From an uncultured Gammaproteobacteria bacterium (GTDB lineage: Bacteria; Patescibacteriota; Microgenomatia; Daviesbacterales; UBA10151): 6,061 nt of DNA. Under the pieces are notes generated by a model. It ran no database searches and was not told where the DNA came from. It was given only the letters and a program-made list of their open reading frames with translations. This document shows, piece after piece, positions 17 through 6,061 of the stretch (the first letter of the stretch is position 1; every line of letters starts with the position of its first letter). The translations under genes and the position numbers were made by a program. Location of the stretch: positions 1 to 6,061 of the forward strand of contig CAZFVS010000066.1 in assembly GCA_964522265.1 (NCBI GenBank), given 5' to 3'.

Positions 17-31
17 TAATAAATACCTCCG

Positions 32-102
32 TGGACCGGACGGGAGTCGAACCCGCATTTTCTACTTGAGGGGTAGTTGGTCTGCCGTTAACCTACCGGC
101 TC
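32..102 (-). tRNA. tRNA-like gene, 71 nt, anticodon loop CCCUCAA (anticodon CUC = Glu under standard numbering); atypical at several conserved positions
   Basis: The reverse complement of 32-102 folds as a cloverleaf. Acceptor GAGCCGG/CCGGTCC; U8; D arm GGTT-AACGGCA-GACC (A14, G18G19, A21 present); anticodon arm ACTAC-CCCTCAA-GTAGA; 4-nt variable loop AAAT; T arm GCGGG-TTCGACT-CCCGT (canonical T54 T55 C56 R57 A58); discriminator A. No CCA is encoded. Deviations: A2.C71 mismatch, A27.A43 mismatch, and C instead of U at position 33. Confidence 0.6.
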
Positions 103-177: not shown

Positions 178-1188
178 ATGAGTAACCAAATGATTAATCA
201 AAAAGCATGCTTAAATCCTAAACTATTTGATAAGGATATTGAGCAGGTGCCTTCCAGGATGGGGTTTGGGGAGGGGCTGGTTTTGGCAGGGGAGGAGAAC
301 CCTAATGTTGTTGGTCTTTGTGCGGATCTGACAGGTTCTACCAAGATGGACGCCTTTGCCAAAAAATTCCCTGAAAGATTTGTGCAGATCGGCGTGGCGG
401 AACAAAATTTAGCAACTGTAGCTTCAGGTATGTCAGCAGCAGGCAAAATCCCCTTTATATCCTCTTATGCCATGTTTTCCCCTGGACGAAACTGGGAGCA
501 GATCCGCACAACTGTCTGTTACAACAACCAGCCTGTAAAAATTATCGGTTCACATGCCGGAATTTCAGTGGGGCCTGACGGTGCAACTCACCAGGCCCTG
601 GAGGATATGGCAATTACCAGGGTAATTCCTAATATGGTAGTGATTGCGCCATGTGACACCATTGAAGCCAGGAAAGCTACACAAGCTGTGGCACGCACCA
701 AAGAGCCTTCTTACATCAGGTTGTCCCGCGAAAAAGTTCCGGTTGTGACAACCCAGCAGACCCCATTTGAGATTGGTAAAGCCCAGGTTTTTTATGAAGG
801 TAAAGACGTTACAGTCATTGGATGCGGGCAGATGGTTTACCGCGCGCTTTTGGCGGCTAAAAAACTTGCCGAACCTGAGAAAGGTAAAATAAGTGTTCGA
901 GTAATAAATTGCCACACAATTAAGCCTTTGGAAAAGAAAACCATCGTGCAAGCTGTGGAAGAAACCGGGGCAATAGTCACTGTTGAAGAGCATCAGGCTG
1001 CTGGGGGGTTGGGGTCGGCTGTGGCGGAACTTGTTTCCCAAAATTACCCTGTACCTATAAAAATTGTAGGAATTGAAGACCATTTTGGAGAATCAGGTGA
1101 ACCTGATGAACTGTTGGAAAAATTCGGGCTGACGGTGGAAGCGATCATTAAAGCAGTTACACACGTTCTTCGGTTAAAAAATAAGTAA
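178..1188 (+). CDS. Transketolase, C-terminal subunit of a split (two-polypeptide) transketolase: pyrimidine-binding plus C-terminal domains
   Basis: 336-aa ORF with AGGAG (168-172) 5 nt upstream of the ATG. Motifs match the transketolase/DXS pyrimidine-binding domain (FVQIGVAEQNLATVASGMS, GSHAGISVGPDGATHQALEDMAITRVIPNM), followed by a C-terminal domain (VINCHTIKPLEKK..., VEEHQAAGGLGSAV). The length fits the C-terminal half alone, and no TPP-binding N-terminal domain is present. Confidence 0.9.
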   Translation: MSNQMINQKACLNPKLFDKDIEQVPSRMGFGEGLVLAGEENPNVVGLCADLTGSTKMDAFAKKFPERFVQIGVAEQNLATVASGMSAAGKIPFISSYAMFSPGRNWEQIRTTVCYNNQPVKIIGSHAGISVGPDGATHQALEDMAITRVIPNMVVIAPCDTIEARKATQAVARTKEPSYIRLSREKVPVVTTQQTPFEIGKAQVFYEGKDVTVIGCGQMVYRALLAAKKLAEPEKGKISVRVINCHTIKPLEKKTIVQAVEETGAIVTVEEHQAAGGLGSAVAELVSQNYPVPIKIVGIEDHFGESGEPDELLEKFGLTVEAIIKAVTHVLRLKNK

Positions 1189-1458
1189 CTAATCAGGAAC
1201 TCCGCGTTTTTTGCCTTTCTCCACTAAAAACAGAAGATGATCCAGATCCAATTTGTGCCTGAAATTTTCCTCCAATATCTCATCAAGGCTTTGGTATGTA
1301 GGGGTTTCGTCTACCCGCACCCAAACAGCCTGTTTGTCGGGGTCAACAAAAACGATTTTTCGCTCACTCTCTGGCATAAATGTTTTATAGCCTATGCGGT
1401 AAATGGTTGTCAATAGCGGAATATTGACTTTTGGTATATAATGTTTATATCCCCCCAT
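1189..1458 (-). CDS. Small hypothetical protein (89 aa maximal ORF; a 62-aa version starting at ATG 1377 is at least as likely)
   Basis: This is the only long ORF filling the 270-nt gap between tkt and the copper operon. Its TAG stop (1191->1189) directly abuts the tkt TAA (1186-1188). The internal Met at 1377 lies 6 nt downstream of a good minus-strand promoter (TTGACA-18-TATAAA). The acidic C-terminal half has no motif I recognise. Confidence 0.45.
   Translation of the reverse strand: MGGYKHYIPKVNIPLLTTIYRIGYKTFMPESERKIVFVDPDKQAVWVRVDETPTYQSLDEILEENFRHKLDLDHLLFLVEKGKKRGVPD
1384..1413 (-). promoter_or_regulatory. Candidate sigma70-type promoter giving a leaderless transcript for the small minus-strand ORF
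   Basis: On the minus strand: perfect TTGACA (1413->1408), 18-nt spacer, TATAAA (1389->1384), then 6 nt (ACATTT), then ATG at 1377->1375. No Shine-Dalgarno sequence is present in between. Confidence 0.45.
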
Positions 1459-1470
1459 AGGGGATATAAT
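1432..1470 (+). promoter_or_regulatory. Promoter region of the copper operon with two consensus -10 hexamers
   Basis: TATAAT occurs at 1437-1442, preceded by TGG-TATATA (1432-1440), which is extended -10-like. A second TATAAT at 1465-1470 lies 7 nt before ATG 1478, so it would give a leaderless or 1-nt-leader mRNA. There is no Shine-Dalgarno sequence before 1478. No convincing -35 is present at 17 bp for either hexamer. Confidence 0.4.
1445..1469. promoter_or_regulatory. Perfect 10-bp inverted repeat TTATATCCCC-ccata-GGGGATATAA; candidate CsoR operator of the copper operon
   Basis: Arms 1445-1454 and 1460-1469 are exact reverse complements separated by a 5-nt spacer. The layout (C4/G4 tracts inside AT-rich flanks) is the style of known CsoR operators. 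It overlaps the TATAAT at 1465-1470 and lies 9 nt upstream of the first operon ATG. A CsoR with the full Cu(I) ligand set is encoded at 3804-4073. Confidence 0.55.
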
Positions 1471-1477
1471 CTAGTTT

Positions 1478-1987
1478 ATGAATGAAAAAAAGTTGATTAT
1501 TGGGTTTATTGCAGCAACAATCCTTCTTTTGGGCGGAAGTGTGGTGTTTGTGAGCAGTTCATCGGCTCCTAAAGCTATTCAAATCTCACAAAACGCCAAA
1601 GTTGAAACCCCTGAAACCTCATTTGATTGGGGCGAAATTAAATACGACGGCCCCAAAGCTACAAAAACATTTAAAATTAAAAATGCCGGTTCCGACAGCC
1701 TGCAGCTGACAAAAGTAAAAACATCCTGTACCTGTACTACAGCTCAGGTAGTTATTAATCCTAGTGACCCTAATGCGAAAAGAAGCCCTATTTTCAGTAT
1801 GCATGCTGCCGCTGACTGGTTAGGTGAGGTTCCTCCGGGGCAGGAGGCAGATTTGGTGGTAATATTTGACCAGTCATTCCATGGGCCCTCGGGGGTTGGT
1901 TCTATAGAAAGATTAATTTCAGTGGAAACAAATGATGCAAAAAGTCCAAAACTTGAGTTTACACTAAAAGGCAATGTTGTCAAATGA
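1478..1987 (+). CDS. Signal-anchored DUF1573-type protein (Ig-like fold family) with a CxC motif
   Basis: 169 aa. The N-terminus is MNEKK followed by a hydrophobic helix and then SSSSAPKA, consistent with N-in/C-out topology or a cleavable signal. The core FDWGEIKYDGPKATKTFKIKNAGSDSLQLTKVKTSCTCT matches the DUF1573 signature (FDFG.I..G......F.F.N.G...L.I..V..SCGCT). Cys84 and Cys86 are at 1727-1735. The stop overlaps the next start (ATGA, 1984-1987). Confidence 0.85.
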   Translation: MNEKKLIIGFIAATILLLGGSVVFVSSSSAPKAIQISQNAKVETPETSFDWGEIKYDGPKATKTFKIKNAGSDSLQLTKVKTSCTCTTAQVVINPSDPNAKRSPIFSMHAAADWLGEVPPGQEADLVVIFDQSFHGPSGVGSIERLISVETNDAKSPKLEFTLKGNVVK

Positions 1988-2964
1988 AAAGAAAATTAAA
2001 AAAAATTTTAAAGCGGGCAATACCGCTGTGGATGGTCATAATACTTATACTGGATGCTTCCATGCTGGTTGGAATTTCGGAATATGTTTTGATGAAAAAA
2101 CAGCTCAGTCAAGCTGTTTTAAGTCTTTCTAAAATCACTGATTCTGACGGATTGATCCAGATCCTGAAACAGGAAGTTATCCCCGCCGGTGGATACACAG
2201 CCTCAGTTAAATGGAAAAATTTAGGCCAACAGTTGGTGGAAGCGGGTGCAATTGATGAGGAAAAATACCGGGAGATTTTCAGCGGCGACGAGATGAAATA
2301 TTTAAACGGAAGTTATGATGAAAATATTAAAATTAACGAGAAGAACTCACGTTTTTTAGTTAACACTTTCTGGGCGTTGGGTTTGGTAAACAAGTCAAGA
2401 GTGTTAGACGCAGGCCCGATGAAAAGTGAGGGTATAGAGACAGGTAATATGGCTTCAACAGGCGGTTGGACACTGGGCAAACTGCAACCAATGGAACTTT
2501 ATTCCTCAAAAGAATTGATTAAACTTACCGACCAGCAGCAGGAACTGGTTAAAAAAATAGCCCAAAATATCTACCGACCCTGTTGTGACAACAGCACCTA
2601 TTTTCCGGACTGCAACCACGGTATGGCTGTTTTGGGTTATATAGAGTATGCAGTTTCGGAAGGGCTTTCAGAAAATCAAATCTATAAGGATATCCTGGCG
2701 CTTAATTCTTACTGGTTTCCTCAGAATTATTTGGATATGGTGGAATATTTTAACCGCGATCTTTTTAAAACAAAACCCCAAACGCTTGCACAAAAAATCC
2801 TCAAGTTTGGCGCTGATCCCAAAAAAGATATTAAATGGTCCAGCCTTGATCCCAAAGTTTTGTTGTCCAAAGAGTATTCTTCTGCGGGTGGTGCGAAAAA
2901 GATCCAAAAAGAGGTAGAGGATATTAAGGGGTCTCCGATCCAGGGGGGAGGGTGCAGCGCTTAA
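1984..2964 (+). CDS. Membrane-anchored extracytoplasmic protein of unassigned family with a CC-x8-C-x-H motif
   Basis: 326 aa. A very basic N-terminus (MKRKLKKILKR) and one TM helix predict N-in/C-out topology with a roughly 285-aa outside domain. The conserved-looking block is GNMASTGGWTLG ... IYRPCCDNSTYFPDCNHGMAVLGY (Cys200-Cys201 at 2581-2586; Cys210 and His212 at 2611-2619). The C-terminal tail is QGGGCSA. It is coupled by ATGA upstream and TAATG downstream. I recognise no Pfam family. Confidence 0.8.
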   Translation: MKRKLKKILKRAIPLWMVIILILDASMLVGISEYVLMKKQLSQAVLSLSKITDSDGLIQILKQEVIPAGGYTASVKWKNLGQQLVEAGAIDEEKYREIFSGDEMKYLNGSYDENIKINEKNSRFLVNTFWALGLVNKSRVLDAGPMKSEGIETGNMASTGGWTLGKLQPMELYSSKELIKLTDQQQELVKKIAQNIYRPCCDNSTYFPDCNHGMAVLGYIEYAVSEGLSENQIYKDILALNSYWFPQNYLDMVEYFNRDLFKTKPQTLAQKILKFGADPKKDIKWSSLDPKVLLSKEYSSAGGAKKIQKEVEDIKGSPIQGGGCSA

Positions 2965-3797
2965 TGGAAAATATACTTTTTCAAACATCTCTTATTGCGG
3001 CATTTGTAGCAGGGATGGTGGCTTTATTTGCCCCATGCTGTATTACATTTCTTCTGCCAGCCTATTTGGGGAGTATTTTCAAAGAGAAAGAAAAAGTTTT
3101 ATTGATGACCATGGTTTTCGGCGCAGGCATTTTCGTTGTTTTACTGCCGGCGGTTTTGGGTGTAGCCTACATTTCAAAGTTTTTATTTGATAACCATGAT
3201 TTTGTATATATTTTAGGAGCTGTCATGATGATGACTGTTGCCGTCACGACATTTTTGGGACTGAAGCTTCCCATGCCCCACCTTCCGGGAGCTGATCGGC
3301 AAAAACATGATATTTTATCAATCTTTACCCTTGGCATATTTTCCGGGATTACCAGTGCCTGTTGTGCTCCTGTTTTGATCGGAATATTAACTTTAACATT
3401 TCTTTCACCCAGCTTTTTGGGTGCCATAATAATAGGGGGGATGTATGTATTGGGTATGGTTATGCCGCTTCTTTTGATCTCAATTTTTTTAGACGGCAAG
3501 ATGCCGGCTGTTTCAGTACTAAGGAAGTGTCTTTTTGAAATAAAAATTTTCGGAAAAAATTATGCTGTTTTAACTAGTAATTTAATTGCTTCCGTAATCT
3601 TCTTGTTTACCGGTTGGTTGATACTGCTTCTGACTCTGCAAGGAAAATTGGCGATGGGAAGCATACAAAAATATACCGCAACTATTACCAACGCTTTCAA
3701 TTATATAAACAGCTATACGGGGAATAATCTATTCATTAACATAGCATTTGTATTTTTGCTGGTGCTTTTGCTTTATAAAATAGGAAAAAAATTGTAA
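2964..3797 (+). CDS. CcdA/DsbD-family integral membrane protein (cytochrome c biogenesis-type thiol-disulfide transporter fold), variant with vicinal Cys pairs
   Basis: 277 aa from ATG 2964 (TAATG overlap with the upstream stop; GGAGG at 2947-2951). About 7 predicted TM helices. TM1 reads FAPCCITFLLPAYL, compared with CcdA SPCvlPLlP.Y. TM4 reads GITSACCAPVLIGIL, compared with CcdA tPCigPiLg. Both pseudo-symmetric halves therefore carry CC (3036-3041 and 3360-3365) where CcdA has a single Cys. Confidence 0.85.
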   Translation: MENILFQTSLIAAFVAGMVALFAPCCITFLLPAYLGSIFKEKEKVLLMTMVFGAGIFVVLLPAVLGVAYISKFLFDNHDFVYILGAVMMMTVAVTTFLGLKLPMPHLPGADRQKHDILSIFTLGIFSGITSACCAPVLIGILTLTFLSPSFLGAIIIGGMYVLGMVMPLLLISIFLDGKMPAVSVLRKCLFEIKIFGKNYAVLTSNLIASVIFLFTGWLILLLTLQGKLAMGSIQKYTATITNAFNYINSYTGNNLFINIAFVFLLVLLLYKIGKKL

Positions 3798-3803
3798 AAA
3801 AAT

Positions 3804-4073
3804 ATGGCATACAGACCTAAAGATTCTAAAGAGAGGACCTTGCACAGGCTTAAAATTGCCCAGGGCCATCTGAAAAAGGTGGTTAGTATGATGCAAAATG
3901 GCCAATATTGTATAGATATCCTGCATCAATCTAATGCAGTACAGCGGGCGCTCAAAGAAGCGGACAGTATGATTTTGGAAAACCATCTTAAAACCTGCGC
4001 AGCGGATGCTATTCAAAATGGTAGAAAAGAAGAGGCAATTTCTGAGATAATGAACGTGTTCAAAAAAAGTTAA
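3804..4073 (+). CDS. csoR: CsoR-family copper-sensing transcriptional repressor (CsoR/RcnR/FrmR, DUF156 fold)
   Basis: 89 aa. RLKIAQGHLKKVVSMMQNGQYCIDILHQSNAVQRALKEADSMILENHLKTC carries the family core. The x-C-H-C ligand fingerprint (Y-C ... H-x3-C) is diagnostic of Cu(I)-sensing CsoR rather than RcnR or FrmR. Confidence 0.92.
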   Translation: MAYRPKDSKERTLHRLKIAQGHLKKVVSMMQNGQYCIDILHQSNAVQRALKEADSMILENHLKTCAADAIQNGRKEEAISEIMNVFKKS

Positions 4074-4084
4074 GGAGGTGAAGA

Positions 4085-4354
4085 ATGATGTTAAAACCTT
4101 ACGCTTTTGCCAATGCCTTTACTGTGGTTAGCTTGGCAATTTATGCTATCTGCAGGATCTTATCTCTTTTGGCGCCGGAGTTCCTTTTCAATATTTCTAC
4201 GAGCTGGTTTCATACTTTCAGCCTGGCAAGTTTGAAAGGCACAATTCCTTTTGATTTGGGAATGTTTATTTTTGGGGCTGTAACCTTGAGTGTGTTGGTA
4301 TGGGTAACTGCATATGCGGGAGCGCTGCTTTACAACAGGTGGGCTAATGGATAA
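4085..4354 (+). CDS. Small 2-TM membrane protein, function unknown (possibly the DUF5676-like family seen next to metal ATPases; low-confidence family call)
   Basis: 89 aa with a strong RBS: AGGAGG (4073-4078) 6 nt before the ATG. Two hydrophobic helices (FTVVSLAIYAICRILSLLAP and LGMFIFGAVTLSVLVWVTAYAGALLY). The C-terminus is LLYNRWANG. It overlaps the next gene by 8 nt. Confidence 0.7.
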   Translation: MMLKPYAFANAFTVVSLAIYAICRILSLLAPEFLFNISTSWFHTFSLASLKGTIPFDLGMFIFGAVTLSVLVWVTAYAGALLYNRWANG

Positions 4355-4700
4355 AATTTTAGTCACCATTTTTGGTGTATTAGGAATAGTGTTTACCTAC
4401 TGGTTCTTTTTGATGAAAAAAGAAAGGGAGTTGGCGGTTAAAAATGAGGTAGATATTACTGTTGAAGGCGGTTACACACCGGATGTTATCTCAGTACCTT
4501 TGGGAAAGTTGACAAAAATCAATTTTTTCCGCAAAGACTCCTCGAGCTGTTTGGAAGAGGTGGTTTTAGGCGAATTCAAAATTCGAAAACAGCTGCCTTT
4601 GAATAAAAAAGTGACCGTTGAAATTATGCCGCAAAAAAGAGGAGAGTTTGTGTTTACCTGCGGCATGAACATGTTTCACGGAAAGGTGATAGTCAGATGA
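4347..4700 (+). CDS. Membrane-anchored cupredoxin-like domain protein (Cupredoxin_1-type, commonly encoded upstream of copA)
   Basis: 117 aa from ATG 4347 (AGGTGGG at 4337-4343; ATGGATAA overlap with the upstream gene). An N-terminal TM ([20 protein letters not shown]) is followed by a beta-rich domain: [34 protein letters not shown]...[18 protein letters not shown]. The C...C-G-M-x-M-x-H ligand pattern is typical of this family. The stop overlaps the copA start (ATGA). Confidence 0.8.
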
Positions 4701-6061
4701 AAAAAACCTACCCGGTGAAAGGGATGCACTGTGCATCATGCGTAAGACTGATTGAAAAAGCGTTGTCCAAAGTTGACGGTGTAGCATCCGCCAGCGTTAA
4801 CCTGGCGAGTGAAAAGGCAACGGTTGAATACAACTCCAAAGTTGCCAGCGAAGAAAAAATACAGTCTGCTGTTGCTGGTGTAGGATACCAGCTTATGATC
4901 AACGAGGAAATTAAATCGGAAGACGAAACAAAAATAGAAAAGGTAAAGGAGCTGAAAGATCTGCGCACAAAGGTGATGATCAGTTTGGTGTTGGGAGGGC
5001 TTATCCTTTGGGGTAGTTTTCCCGGTTTGGTACAGACGGCACCGGTTTTTTTACAAAACTTCTGGATGCAGTTTTTACTCGCAACACCGGTCCAATTTTG
5101 GGTCGGGTCTGCATTTTATAAAGCAGCCATCCCTGCGCTCAAACACAGAAGCGCCAATATGGATACTCTGGTTGCGATTGGTACTACAGTAGCTTACGGA
5201 TATTCTGCTTTTGTAACAATTTTTCCACAAGTGGTAAAAAATATCGGGATAGAACCGATGCCTTATTTTGATGTTGCAACCATAATAATCGGCCTGATCC
5301 TTTTGGGCAGGTATTTTGAAGCGAAGGCCAAAGCAGGTACATCTGAAGCAATTAAAAAACTGATAGGATTGCAGGCTAAAACGGCAAGAGTTTTGCGGGA
5401 TGGCAAAGAGTTGGATATACTGATTGACCAGGTTGTAATTGGGGATATCATCAGGGTCCGACCCGGAGAAAAGATACCTGTTGACGGTGTAATAACTTTA
5501 GGGGAGTCCAGTATCGACGAATCAATGATTACCGGGGAAAGCATTCCAGTGGATAAAACTAAAGGTGATAGTGTTGTCGGTGCAACGATCAACAAAACCG
5601 GCACATTCACCTACCGGGCTACCAAAGTTGGTAAGGATACGGTTTTAGCCCAAATTATTAAACTTGTGACTCAAGCCCAGGGATCAAAGGCACCAATCCA
5701 AAGGCTTGCGGATCTGATCTCATCATATTTTGTGCCGATCGTCATCATGCTTGCTATTTTCACTTTTGTGGTATGGTATGTATTTGGCCAGTCCCCAGCT
5801 TTGCTTTTTGCACTTTTAAACACTGTGGCGGTACTGATTATCGCCTGCCCCTGCGCTATGGGTTTGGCCACACCGACTGCAATTATGGTGGGGACCGGGA
5901 AAGGTGCAGAACACGGCATACTGATAAAAGATGCGGAAAGCCTAGAAACCGCCCATAAAATCAACACTATTATTTTTGACAAAACTGGAACATTAACTTA
6001 CGGTAAGCCTGTGGTTACGGATGTCGTTTCTATGGAATTGGATTCCCGCCTGCCTGCCGGT
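4697..6061 (+). CDS. copA: Copper-translocating P1B-type ATPase CopA, N-terminal 455 codons (3' end lies beyond the window)
   Basis: My own translation of frame 2 from ATG 4697 (AAGGTGA RBS at 4683-4689) runs to 6061 without a stop. It contains an HMA domain [15 protein letters not shown] (GMHCASC at 4721-4741), the actuator motif ITGES, the TM6 CPC motif ([13 protein letters not shown], 5846-5854) and the phosphorylation site DKTGTLT (5978-5998). Confidence 0.97.

What the first reader, a model, noticed from the sequence alone, without database searches (positions are those of the whole stretch)
1478..3797. Candidate undescribed copper-linked envelope thiol module: DUF1573(CxC) + CC-x8-CxH protein + CC/CC CcdA-like permease
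Three consecutive translationally coupled genes (ATGA and TAATG overlaps) encode two exported Cys-motif proteins plus a membrane thiol relay or conduit. They sit under the same operator-bearing promoter as csoR and copA. CcdA-type proteins normally serve a thioredoxin-fold partner (ResA, CcmG, StoA), and none is encoded here. The only candidate exported partners are a DUF1573 protein and an unassigned protein. DsbD-like proteins have precedents in copper biology: ScsB in the Salmonella scsABCD copper-tolerance locus, and the DsbD-domain protein YcnL next to the Bacillus ycnKJI copper locus. Those use different partners. I infer either a reductive pathway that keeps exported cysteines reduced or repairs copper-oxidised thiols, or a Cu(I) capture and hand-off route on the outer face that complements CopA efflux.
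Basis: inference. Interest (0 to 1): 0.85.

Follow-up and report, generated by a model that had tools for sequence, protein, structure and literature searches.

The report
Copper-regulated envelope cysteine-relay module in Patescibacteria
Three tightly coupled genes in a copper-export operon of an uncultured Daviesbacteria-like bacterium encode a conserved, undescribed trio (small CxC carrier, new-fold Cys/His surface protein, unusual CcdA-type membrane protein) that most likely keeps copper-handling cysteines on the cell surface reduced during copper stress.

Summary
Genes A (1478-1987, DUF1573, CxC), B (1984-2964, no known family, CC-x8-C-x-H) and C (2964-3797, two CC pairs) overlap by ATGA and TAATG. 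They lie behind a CsoR-type palindrome (1447-1467), upstream of csoR, a DUF5676 gene, a CupA-like gene and copA.

C is a real but divergent CcdA relative: its profile matches T. thermophilus CcdA at E=7e-16, and the first Cys of each CC aligns with the catalytic Cys.

B is a large Patescibacteria family with no Pfam, NCBIfam or PDB match. A confident AlphaFold model found no fold match in the PDB.

In 80 related genomes, A-B-C is intact in 48 loci and 68 carry CsoR, an ArsR-type regulator or CopA. None shows cytochrome c maturation signatures. B is the constant part. DUF1573 is replaced by a Sco/TlpA-like redoxin, and the CC permease by other Cys-bearing membrane proteins. Both replacements are strictly mutually exclusive.

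Best reading (about 0.5): a copper-induced reductive relay, cytoplasm to C to A to B, that keeps B's Cys3-His site reduced to bind or process Cu(I) expelled by CopA. This is analogous to ScsB/ScsC/CueP. A Cu(I)-conducting permease is not excluded. No literature on the module was found.

The parts
1447..1467 (.). CsoR-type operator: G/C-tract palindrome ATATCCCC-N5-GGGGATAT, 10 bp before the start codon of A
   Evidence: One match in the window and none in 200 shuffles. The same motif lies 10-45 bp upstream of csoR or of the DUF1573 gene in about 17 related loci.
1478..1987 (+). Gene A: exported or membrane-anchored DUF1573 Ig-like protein (169 aa). The CxC motif is encoded at 1727-1735. M108 and H135 are conserved.
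   Evidence: Pfam PF07610 at 1.3e-14, above cut-off, and a HYDIN/VesB Ig-like hit. C84 and C86 are 97% conserved, H135 97%, M108 83%. A single N-terminal hydrophobic segment spans residues 3-31. DUF1573 has selenoprotein forms with UGC at this motif (PMC9312934).
1984..2964 (+). Gene B: N-terminally anchored, outward-facing 326-aa protein of an unnamed family. The motif R-P-C-C-D-N-S-T-x-F-P-D-C-N-H-G is encoded at 2575-2622. The tail Cys324 is encoded at 2953-2955.
   Evidence: No Pfam, NCBIfam or PDB sequence match. More than 4647 homologues, and 454 clusters at 50% identity. Invariant residues are R198, C200, C201, N203, D209, C210, N211, H212 and G213; the A-S-T-G-G-W stretch (157-162) and C324 are at least 90% conserved. 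AlphaFold model: pLDDT 88.6, pTM 0.82, mainly helical, tail 322-326 disordered. No Foldseek PDB match better than E=2.8.
2964..3797 (+). Gene C: divergent CcdA/DsbD-superfamily membrane protein (277 aa). Vicinal Cys pairs are encoded at 3036-3041 (C25, C26) and 3360-3365 (C133, C134). It carries an extra C-terminal transmembrane helix.
   Evidence: Family profile against CcdA 5VKV: E=6e-7 and 7e-16. The first Cys of each pair aligns with the CcdA Cys. C25, C26, C133, C134 and H78 are invariant; M48 and M165 are at least 90% conserved. Hydropathy suggests about 7 helices, N-terminus out and C-terminus in. The protein itself has no Pfam hit. Some homologues are named CcdA or carry PF02683.
3804..4073 (+). 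csoR: Cu(I)-sensing repressor (89 aa) with the C36/H61/C65 ligand triad
   Evidence: Pfam PF02583 at 4e-23. NCBIfam RicR-like match below cut-off. The triad was read directly from the translation.
4085..4354 (+). DUF5676 protein with two transmembrane helices (89 aa), a frequent operon companion
   Evidence: Pfam PF18926 at 2.7e-14. Homologues occur in 40 of 80 related loci.
4347..4700 (+). Membrane-anchored cupredoxin-like protein (117 aa) with C68 ... C105-G-M-N-M, the CupA-type Cu(I) chaperone pattern
   Evidence: Pfam Cupredoxin_1 at 3.6e-23. The motif was read from the translation. The resemblance to S. pneumoniae CupA (C74, C111-x-M-x-M) is from memory.
4697..6061 (+). copA: Cu(I)-exporting P1B-ATPase with an N-terminal HMA domain and a CPC motif, truncated by the window end
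   Evidence: Pfam HMA and E1-E2_ATPase; NCBIfam CopA at 2.7e-116.

Best explanation
This is a copper-stress envelope module.

- When cytoplasmic Cu(I) releases CsoR from the operator at 1447-1467, the whole seven-gene unit is transcribed (inferred).
- CopA, loaded by the CupA-like chaperone, pumps Cu(I) to the outer face of the membrane (from established family knowledge).
- C, a CcdA-type membrane protein, carries reducing equivalents from the cytoplasmic thioredoxin system across the membrane (inferred from homology).
- C hands them to the CxC pair of the small Ig-fold protein A.
- A keeps the Cys3-His site and the flexible C-terminal Cys of the membrane-anchored new-fold protein B in the thiol state.
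- Reduced B, and probably A, binds or processes the expelled Cu(I). This stops it re-entering the cell or oxidising other exported thiols.

Shown here: gene content, motif conservation, CcdA homology, synteny with copper regulators and pumps, and modular replacement of partners.

Inferred: direction of electron flow, copper binding by A and B, and co-transcription.
For: 1. C is homologous to a structurally characterised CcdA, with the catalytic Cys aligned.
2. A, B and C are translationally coupled here. In relatives, 40 of 44 adjacent A-B gaps and 40 of 44 adjacent B-C gaps are at most 20 bp.
3. Copper linkage: CsoR occurs in 49 of 80 loci, an ArsR-type regulator in 12, CopA in 53, and any of these in 68. 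The operator is conserved upstream of the operon. B sits next to a multicopper oxidase (L032, L034), next to CopG/DUF411 and a CopY-like repressor (L083), next to CopZ-CopA (L088) and next to a YHS protein (L089). B is also fused to a cytoplasmic HMA domain (P0274).
4. Redox-relay logic: DUF1573 and a thioredoxin-fold CxxxC...H redoxin never co-occur (0 of 59 against 7 of 21, p=4e-5). In a distant lineage a classical WCPPC TlpA/ResA-type redoxin overlaps the start of B (L090). L088 has the order B, CC/CC DsbD_TM, redoxin. DUF1573 is found fused to a CcmH thiol-oxidoreductase domain (L084). DUF1573 has Sec-for-Cys forms.
5. DsbA-like and VKOR genes lie nearby in 10-19 loci. These cells therefore have an oxidising pathway that exported thiols must be protected from.
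6. Precedent: copper-induced ScsB/ScsC bind Cu(I) and pass it to CueP, and DsbD-alpha and ScsB-alpha are Ig-fold dithiol carriers (PMC10907172).
7. The 80 loci contain no sign of cytochrome c maturation.
Against: - There are no experimental data of any kind, and all organisms involved are uncultured.
- Vicinal CC pairs are unusual for thiol-disulfide relays and typical of soft-metal sites.
- M48, H78 and M165 are conserved in C. About 18 of 120 close C homologues carry a cytoplasmic 'H-x-CC' tail. A has conserved His and Met beside its CxC. All of this would also fit a metal conduit.
- C does not reach any Pfam threshold, and its AlphaFold model is poor (pLDDT 59.8).
- The mutual-exclusivity statistics ignore phylogenetic non-independence.
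- Rhodanese domains recur in the system (11 of 80 loci) and this model does not explain them.
- Co-transcription from one promoter is inferred from spacing only. No consensus sigma-70 promoter was called upstream of A.
Confidence: 0.5

Rival explanations
1. Metal relay rather than electron relay. C would be a thiolate-lined Cu(I) conduit built on the DsbD/CcdA scaffold. Cu(I) would move by ligand exchange between a cytoplasmic Cys site, the two membrane-embedded CC pairs, and the Cys/His sites of B and A, as Hg(II) moves through MerP, MerT and MerA.
For: - Both CC pairs are invariant, along with conserved M48, H78 and M165.
- Cytoplasmic 'H-x-CC' tails occur on about 18 of 120 close homologues.
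- Similar C-terminal 'DCC' ends occur on alternative partner proteins.
- Alternative membrane partners carry CPxC in a transmembrane helix.
- Relatives encode a DsbD_2 membrane domain fused to a CupA-like Cu(I) domain right after copA.
- An HMA-TM-B fusion exists.
Against: - There is no energy source for export against a gradient, and import during copper stress would be harmful (inference).
- C is homologous to an electron transporter, and the aligned Cys are the redox-active ones.
- Thioredoxin-fold redoxins, including a classical CxxC TlpA-type, are recurrent partners.
- C has no detectable similarity to MerT, MerC or other metal permeases in Pfam or NCBIfam.
Confidence: 0.2
2. Cuproprotein maturation rather than detoxification. 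Like TlpA, Sco and PCuAC, the module would reduce and metallate exported copper proteins such as cupredoxins or multicopper oxidases, using copper delivered by CopA.
For: - A Sco-like CxxxC...H redoxin replaces DUF1573 in some loci.
- B lies directly upstream of a multicopper oxidase in L032 and L034.
- B lies next to COX2-type cupredoxins in L082 and L084.
- Cupredoxin-domain genes recur in the operons.
Against: - The window encodes no exported cuproenzyme.
- The cupredoxin here looks like a cytoplasm-facing CupA-type chaperone (inference).
- Expression sits behind a CsoR operator together with the efflux pump. That is the logic of a stress response, not of cofactor supply.
- Most of the 80 loci lack an oxidase.
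Confidence: 0.12
3. General envelope disulfide repair. B would be a new kind of disulfide reductase or isomerase acting on many exported proteins damaged by copper-catalysed oxidation, with no copper binding of its own. This resembles the role of DsbC in E. coli copper tolerance.
For: - The same CcdA homology and redoxin partnerships apply as for the main explanation.
- C210 sits at the N-terminus of a helix, as nucleophilic Cys do in thiol oxidoreductases.
- B has many invariant polar residues (R198, N203, D209, N211), suggesting an active site rather than a simple metal site.
Against: - B is fused or adjacent to dedicated metal-binding modules: HMA, YHS, CopG and Sco-like proteins.
- The C-x-H-x-M arrangement and the CC pair are typical copper ligand sets (inference).
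- No substrate candidates are known.
Confidence: 0.13
4. The adjacency to copper genes is incidental. C would be an ordinary CcdA serving cytochrome c or other housekeeping maturation, and A and B would be unrelated surface proteins.
For: Some databases name close homologues of C 'cytochrome c biogenesis protein CcdA'.
Against: - The 80 loci contain no CcsA- or CcmF-type WWD motif and no CXXCH protein.
- Gene order and overlaps are conserved across Microgenomates, Parcubacteria and WWE3.
- Metal regulators and CopA are present in 68 of 80 loci.
Confidence: 0.03

Closest known systems
Salmonella ScsB/ScsC(/ScsD) with CueP (copper-induced envelope thiol-reductase system plus periplasmic copper chaperone)
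   Same: - It is a copper-induced operon.
- A DsbD-superfamily membrane protein feeds electrons to small exported dithiol proteins.
- Those proteins bind Cu(I) themselves and pass it to a Cys-containing chaperone that works with CopA (PMC10907172).
- The first acceptor domain, ScsB-alpha, has an Ig fold, like DUF1573.
   Different: - ScsB has 8 transmembrane helices with fused alpha and gamma domains and single catalytic Cys residues. C is a free-standing CcdA-like core with CC pairs and one extra helix.
- ScsC is a thioredoxin-fold protein. A is a DUF1573 protein with CxC.
- B is unrelated to CueP by sequence and has no PDB fold match.
- Regulation is by CsoR here and by CpxR/CueR there.
CcdA with ResA, StoA or TlpA, and TlpA-Sco (Gram-positive and alphaproteobacterial reductive pathways)
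   Same: - C is homologous to CcdA.
- In relatives the partner is a TlpA/ResA-type or Sco-like redoxin.
- TlpA reduces the copper chaperone Sco so that it can bind copper (established knowledge).
   Different: - C has vicinal CC instead of single Cys, and a seventh helix.
- There is no thioredoxin-fold partner in this window and no link to cytochrome maturation.
- The terminal protein B is a new family.
MerP, MerT and MerA mercury relay
   Same: - A vicinal Cys pair sits inside a membrane helix.
- Cys pairs sit on flexible or cytoplasmic tails.
- A small exported Cys-motif protein sits in front of the permease.
   Different: - There is no sequence relationship.
- The Mer system imports the metal for cytoplasmic reduction, and no equivalent sink for copper is encoded here.
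CopG (DUF411) and CopL/YdhK-type exported copper-resistance proteins
   Same: - They are small exported or surface-anchored Cys/His/Met proteins co-regulated with copper exporters.
- CopG uses a CxCC motif for a multinuclear copper cluster (established knowledge).
- A CopG gene is the immediate neighbour of a B homologue in L083.
   Different: - B matches neither family in Pfam.
- B is mainly helical rather than thioredoxin-like or beta-rich.
- Copper binding by B has not been tested.

Membership tests
CcdA/DsbD superfamily (gene C) | Significant sequence or profile similarity to an experimentally characterised CcdA | tested here: met
   The family profile matches T. thermophilus CcdA (5VKV) at E=6.3e-7 with 31 sequences and at E=7.2e-16 with 55 sequences, over residues 7-180.
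CcdA/DsbD superfamily (gene C) | One conserved Cys in the first and one in the fourth transmembrane helix, next to Pro | tested here: met
   P24-C25 and C133-x-x-P136 align with the two CcdA Cys and are invariant. Deviation: each is followed by a second invariant Cys (C26, C134).
CcdA/DsbD superfamily (gene C) | Reaches the curated Pfam DsbD_TM (PF02683) or DsbD_2 threshold | tested here: not met
   The window protein has no Pfam hit even at E<=10. Only 3 of 120 close homologues carry a precomputed PF02683 hit.
CcdA/DsbD superfamily (gene C) | Six-helix 3+3 inverted-repeat fold | tested here: inconclusive
   Hydropathy gives about 7 helices, with the CcdA-aligned region covering the first five or six. 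The AlphaFold model has pLDDT 59.8, too poor for a fold search. Its predicted helices do break at the two CC sites.
CcdA/DsbD superfamily (gene C) | Transfers electrons from cytoplasmic thioredoxin to an exported thiol-disulfide oxidoreductase | not testable with these tools
   This needs biochemistry or genetics. Indirect support: redoxin partners in related loci.
Cytochrome c maturation (System II, CcdA-ResABC) | Co-occurrence with ResB/CcsB, with ResC/CcsA (WWD motif), or with CXXCH apocytochromes | tested here: not met
   No WWD motif occurs among 1084 ORFs of at least 150 aa, and no CXXCH occurs among 1043 neighbour ORFs, in the 80 loci.
DUF1573 (gene A) | Pfam PF07610 above the gathering score, with the family's CxC motif | tested here: met
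   54.4 bits against a cut-off of 26.1. C84-x-C86 is 97% conserved.
CsoR (3804-4073) | PF02583 fold, the C-H-C Cu(I) ligand triad, and a G/C-tract palindromic operator | tested here: met
   PF02583 at 4e-23. C36, H61 and C65 were read from the translation. The operator lies at 1447-1467 and is conserved in relatives.
ScsB-type DsbD (Scs system) | Eight transmembrane helices with fused periplasmic alpha (tandem Ig) and gamma (thioredoxin) domains | tested here: not met
   C is 277 aa with no soluble domains. The resemblance is functional only.
MerT/MerC-type metal permease | Sequence membership in the MerT, MerC or MerF families | tested here: not met
   C has no Pfam or NCBIfam hit to any Mer permease. 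Only the vicinal CC in a helix is shared.
Known exported copper proteins (CopG/DUF411, CueP, Sco, PCuAC, CopC, CusF, CopL) for gene B | Sequence or fold similarity to one of these families | tested here: not met

The most novel reading that the evidence does not exclude
The CC/CC CcdA variant would be the first DsbD-superfamily protein that conducts a metal rather than electrons. Cu(I) would move by thiolate ligand exchange between a cytoplasmic H-x-CC tail, the membrane CC pairs and the exported proteins. B would be a new-fold enzyme that assembles a multinuclear copper-thiolate or copper-sulfide cluster on the cell surface. In some lineages B would draw sulfane sulfur from the rhodanese domains that are repeatedly fused to it or to DUF1573.
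Probability: 0.15. Interest if true: 0.85.

Novelty: new variant of a known kind. Interest (0 to 1): 0.66.

Why it matters
Patescibacteria (the candidate phyla radiation) are abundant, uncultured, metabolically minimal bacteria, and their envelope biology is almost unknown. This module appears to be their standard companion to the copper pump. It contains a large protein family (454 clusters at 50% identity) with no annotation and no fold match in the PDB.

If the proposed mechanism is right, copper tolerance by reductive protection of surface thiols extends to a third architecture beyond DsbD-DsbC and ScsB-ScsC-CueP. It would also assign a first function to DUF1573 CxC proteins, some of which are selenoproteins. 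And it would define a CcdA subclass with vicinal cysteine pairs whose chemistry, electrons or metal, is directly testable.

The modular swaps give ready-made hypotheses about which parts are functionally equivalent. DUF1573 is exchanged for a redoxin. The CC permease is exchanged for CPxC membrane proteins. Rhodanese and HMA domains appear as fusions.

Tried and rejected
- Pfam and NCBIfam on B and C, even at E<=10, gave nothing usable.
- PDB sequence and profile searches for A and B gave nothing significant. The best match for B was an NTF2-like All4940 protein at E=0.13, treated as chance.
- A Foldseek search of the confident B model against the PDB gave no match below E=2.8.
- The AlphaFold model of C was poor (pLDDT 59.8) and was not fold-searched.
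- Model coordinates are not exposed, so I could not test whether C200, C201, C210 and H212 cluster in space.
- hhalign of B against a PCYCGC-family neighbour showed no relation.
- hhalign of B against an unnamed Cys-rich neighbour in L083 gave a weak possible relation over the C-x-H helix region (probability 59%, E=9e-5). I did not rely on it.
- hhalign of the CPxC membrane domain fused to some B proteins against the C family showed no relation.
- The consensus promoter scan called no sigma-70 promoter upstream of A. Internal sites did not exceed shuffled expectation.
- Literature searches found no description of the module: DUF1573 with copper; CcdA with CsoR and CopA; Patescibacteria with copper; PCYCGC; CPR with copper resistance and thiol.
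- The cytochrome c maturation reading was rejected.


Full report
**1. What is in the window**

ORF listing, sequence reading and family scans give the following map.

| Coordinates | Strand | Feature |
|---|---|---|
| 31-102 | - | tRNA-Glu(CTC) |
| 178-1188 | + | C-terminal half of a split transketolase |
| 1189-1458 | - | Unannotated small ORF |
| 1447-1467 | . | 21-bp palindrome |
| 1478-1987 | + | A: DUF1573 |
| 1984-2964 | + | B: no family |
| 2964-3797 | + | C: membrane protein with two CC pairs |
| 3804-4073 | + | csoR (C36/H61/C65 triad) |
| 4085-4354 | + | DUF5676, two transmembrane helices |
| 4347-4700 | + | Cupredoxin_1 protein with a CupA-like C...C-x-M-x-M pattern |
| 4697-6061 | + | copA, truncated by the window end |

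The last seven genes are tightly packed on the + strand. The window is a whole 6061-bp NCBI contig. Its closest relatives are Candidatus Daviesbacteria, in the Microgenomates group of Patescibacteria.

**2. Checking the observation**

- The ATGA (A/B) and TAATG (B/C) overlaps are real. The ATG at 2964 is the true start of C, because all homologues begin there.
- The Cys motifs are as described and nearly invariant.
  - A: C84-x-C86 at 97%, with H135 at 97% and M108 at 83%.
  - B: C200, C201, C210 and H212 at 100%, and C324 at 96%. C324 lies in a disordered C-terminal tail.
  - C: C25, C26, C133 and C134 at 98-100%.
- A and B each have a single N-terminal hydrophobic segment after a basic stretch, so their domains should face outward (positive-inside rule, inference).
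- The palindrome ATATCCCCCCATAGGGGATAT is unique in the window and absent from 200 shuffles.
- Spacing after C is 6 bp, 11 bp, then two overlaps. Internal promoter-like and terminator-like sites do not exceed chance. One transcription unit is a fair inference but not shown. The scan called no consensus sigma-70 promoter upstream of A.

**3. What each protein is**

A is a bona fide DUF1573 Ig-like protein. Some DUF1573 proteins are selenoproteins with U-G-C at this motif (PMC9312934 and PMC13188914). That marks the CxC as chemically active.

C has no Pfam hit itself. A profile of its family matches the solved T. thermophilus CcdA at E=6e-7, and at 7e-16 with a more diverse alignment. P-C25 and C133-x-x-P align on the two catalytic Cys. 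C is therefore a divergent CcdA-superfamily member. It has three distinctive features:
- a second Cys next to each catalytic one;
- conserved M48, H78 and M165;
- an extra C-terminal helix that puts the C-terminus in the cytoplasm.

About 18 of 120 close homologues extend that end with an 'H-x-CC' tail.

B has more than 4647 homologues at E<=1e-3 and 454 clusters at 50% identity. Where a source names them, the name is 'hypothetical protein', and none has a Pfam domain. Its AlphaFold model is confident (pLDDT 88.6, pTM 0.82) and mainly helical. C210 sits at the start of a helix. The model has no Foldseek match in the PDB. Other structure libraries were unavailable.

**4. Comparative genomics**

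A scan of one genome per species returned at least 574 loci, and the best 80 were analysed. They span Microgenomates, Parcubacteria and WWE3.

| Feature near B | Loci (of 80) |
|---|---|
| A within 1.5 kb | 59 |
| C within 1.5 kb | 58 |
| A and C both | 48 |
| CsoR | 49 |
| ArsR-type regulator, mostly where CsoR is absent | 12 |
| CopA | 53 |
| CsoR, ArsR-type regulator or CopA | 68 |

- The commonest gene order is csoR-A-B-C (27 loci).
- 40 of 44 adjacent A-B gaps, and 40 of 44 adjacent B-C gaps, are at most 20 bp.
- The same operator type lies 10-45 bp upstream of the first operon gene in about 17 loci.
- No WWD heme-handling motif and no CXXCH motif occurs in the neighbourhoods. C is not there for cytochrome c maturation.

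**5. The system is modular and B is the constant**

- Seven loci lack A. Each of these carries instead a membrane-anchored thioredoxin-fold protein (Pfam AhpC-TSA/Redoxin, with a weaker SCO1-SenC hit). It has invariant C-Y-P-[AS]-C, S-S-M-H and P-G-H-[TS]. The exclusivity is 0 of 59 against 7 of 21, p=4e-5.
- Ten loci lack C. These carry other Cys-bearing membrane proteins: two CPxC types and one SfLAP-like type with N-P-C and C-E-F-P-C. The exclusivity is 0 of 59 against 10 of 21, p=2e-7. These statistics ignore shared ancestry.
- Among distant B representatives, several fusions occur:
  - about 20 have a four- or five-helix domain with G-C-P-x-C-G fused to the N-terminus;
  - one has a cytoplasmic HMA domain followed by one transmembrane helix;
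  - several have an exported rhodanese domain.
- Rhodanese with an intact C-R-S-G-x-M-S loop occurs in 11 of 80 loci. It is fused to DUF1573 or to B, or stands free.

Contexts of eight distant B homologues were looked up individually:

| Locus | Neighbourhood |
|---|---|
| L081 | DUF302, DUF1573, SfLAP-like permease, HMA::B, CopA |
| L082 | Cupredoxin, rhodanese, Ferric_reduct membrane protein |
| L083 | CopY-like repressor, CPxC membrane protein, CopG/DUF411, rhodanese::B |
| L084 | CcmH::DUF1573, further DUF1573 copies, COX2-type cupredoxins |
| L088 | CopZ, CopA, B, CC/CC DsbD_TM, Sco-like redoxin |
| L089 | YHS domain protein |
| L090 | Classical WCPPC TlpA/ResA-type redoxin overlapping the start of B |
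| L086 | No informative neighbours |

In L032 and L034, B precedes a multicopper oxidase.

**6. Mechanism**

The recurring combination is:
- a membrane protein with Cys in a helix;
- a small exported dithiol protein (Ig-fold CxC or thioredoxin-fold CxxC/CxxxC);
- B;
- copper regulators and pumps.

This is best read as a copper-induced reductive relay ending on B. The CcdA homology, the TlpA-type partner and the CcmH fusion all point to electron transfer. The HMA, YHS, CopG, Sco-like and oxidase associations point to copper handling by B and probably A, as does the ligand-like C-C...C-x-H-x-M set.

The nearest precedent is Salmonella ScsB/ScsC with CueP. There the reductase components bind Cu(I) themselves and pass it to a Cys-containing chaperone that works with CopA. 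The first acceptor domain of DsbD and ScsB also has an Ig fold (PMC10907172). I give this reading about 0.5.

The rivals are:
- Metal relay (about 0.2). The vicinal CC pairs, conserved Met and His, and Cys-rich cytoplasmic tails keep a Mer-like Cu(I) conduit alive. It lacks a driving force and an obvious sink.
- Cuproprotein maturation (about 0.12).
- Copper-independent disulfide repair by B (about 0.13).
- Incidental adjacency. This is effectively excluded.

The rhodanese fusions remain unexplained.

**7. Novelty and verdict**

The kind of system is known: a DsbD-superfamily reductant conduit tied to copper tolerance. This implementation is not. It combines a new-fold Cys3-His protein family, a CC/CC CcdA subclass and a DUF1573 CxC carrier, in a lineage with no genetics.

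Five literature searches found nothing on it. The library searched is limited to open-access papers and preprints.

I rate it a new variant of a known kind, with interest 0.66. Its interpretation is supported, with the refinements given above.

Noticed in passing
window 4347-4700: The Cupredoxin_1 protein has C68 and C105-G-M-N-M. The 37-residue spacing and the C-x-M-x-M pattern match what I recall for the S. pneumoniae Cu(I) chaperone CupA. Charges after its single helix suggest a cytoplasm-facing domain that loads CopA.
   Followed up: partly
L004:12735-13975 (also L005-L010, L016, L023, L024, L044, L054, L058): In close relatives copA is followed by a 344-aa fusion and then a 70-aa CopZ-like HMA protein. 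The fusion joins a DsbD_2 membrane domain (one Cys in each of two helices) to a CupA-like cupredoxin domain (C...C-S-M-G-M). The window ends inside copA, so whether this genome has them is unknown. It is a second DsbD-superfamily protein tied to copper.
   Followed up: partly
L022:8920-9666, L040:7533-8735, L057, L065, L051:7545-7994, L082:2064-2561: Exported rhodanese domains with an intact C-R-S-G-x-M-S or C-K-T-G-R-M-S loop recur in the system. They are fused to a second DUF1573 copy (7 loci) or to B (3 loci), or stand free next to B. No explanation so far accounts for a sulfurtransferase domain here.
   Followed up: partly
P0252, P0265, P0277, P0283 and about 16 other cluster representatives; L082, L084: Many distant B homologues carry an N-terminal four- or five-helix membrane domain with an invariant G-C-P-x-C-G...P-L-x-G-L-E motif. 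It has no Pfam match and no detectable relation to the CcdA-like permease.
   Followed up: partly
P0126-P0158 (C homologues); L053:4026-4496; L036:7391-7924; L083:2165-2659: A C-terminal 'D/H-x-CC' ending recurs on three kinds of protein in these loci: the cytoplasmic tail of some CC/CC permeases, a CPIC membrane protein, and a soluble 165-180 aa protein of unknown family encoded just upstream of B.
   Followed up: no
L083:4479-5219 and L083:5318-5527: Two further exported proteins next to a rhodanese-B fusion end in '...V-G-G-C', like B's '...G-G-x-C-x-x' tail. The larger one has C-x2-C-C...C-x-C-x-H and aligns weakly with B's C-x-H helix region (hhalign probability 59%).
   Followed up: partly
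L008:5168-6030, L028, L030, L036:9572-10523, L055, L060, L065, L079; fused in P0272/L088: Pairs of small (140-160 aa) membrane proteins recur downstream of the module, one carrying an M-x-x-C-C-x-H-H/Y motif in a helix. In P0272 this domain is fused to B. There is no Pfam match.
   Followed up: no
L002:4234-5287 and about 10-19 other loci: VKOR and DsbA-like genes, an oxidative disulfide-forming pair, lie a few kb upstream of the module on the same strand in many Microgenomates.
   Followed up: partly
window 1189-1458 (- strand): An 89-aa ORF with no Pfam hit fills the transketolase-to-A spacer, with a likelier 62-aa start at 1377. Its annotated start would overlap the operator. In the closest relative, L001, this spacer is only 87 bp, against 290 bp here, so the ORF region looks like an insertion.
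   Followed up: no
window 31-102 (-) and 178-1188 (+): A tRNA-Glu(CTC) and the C-terminal half of a split transketolase lie upstream. The N-terminal half is a separate gene in L001. They are unrelated to the module.
   Followed up: no
L032:8803-10365, L034: In two loci without A or C, B is directly followed by a three-domain multicopper oxidase.
   Followed up: no
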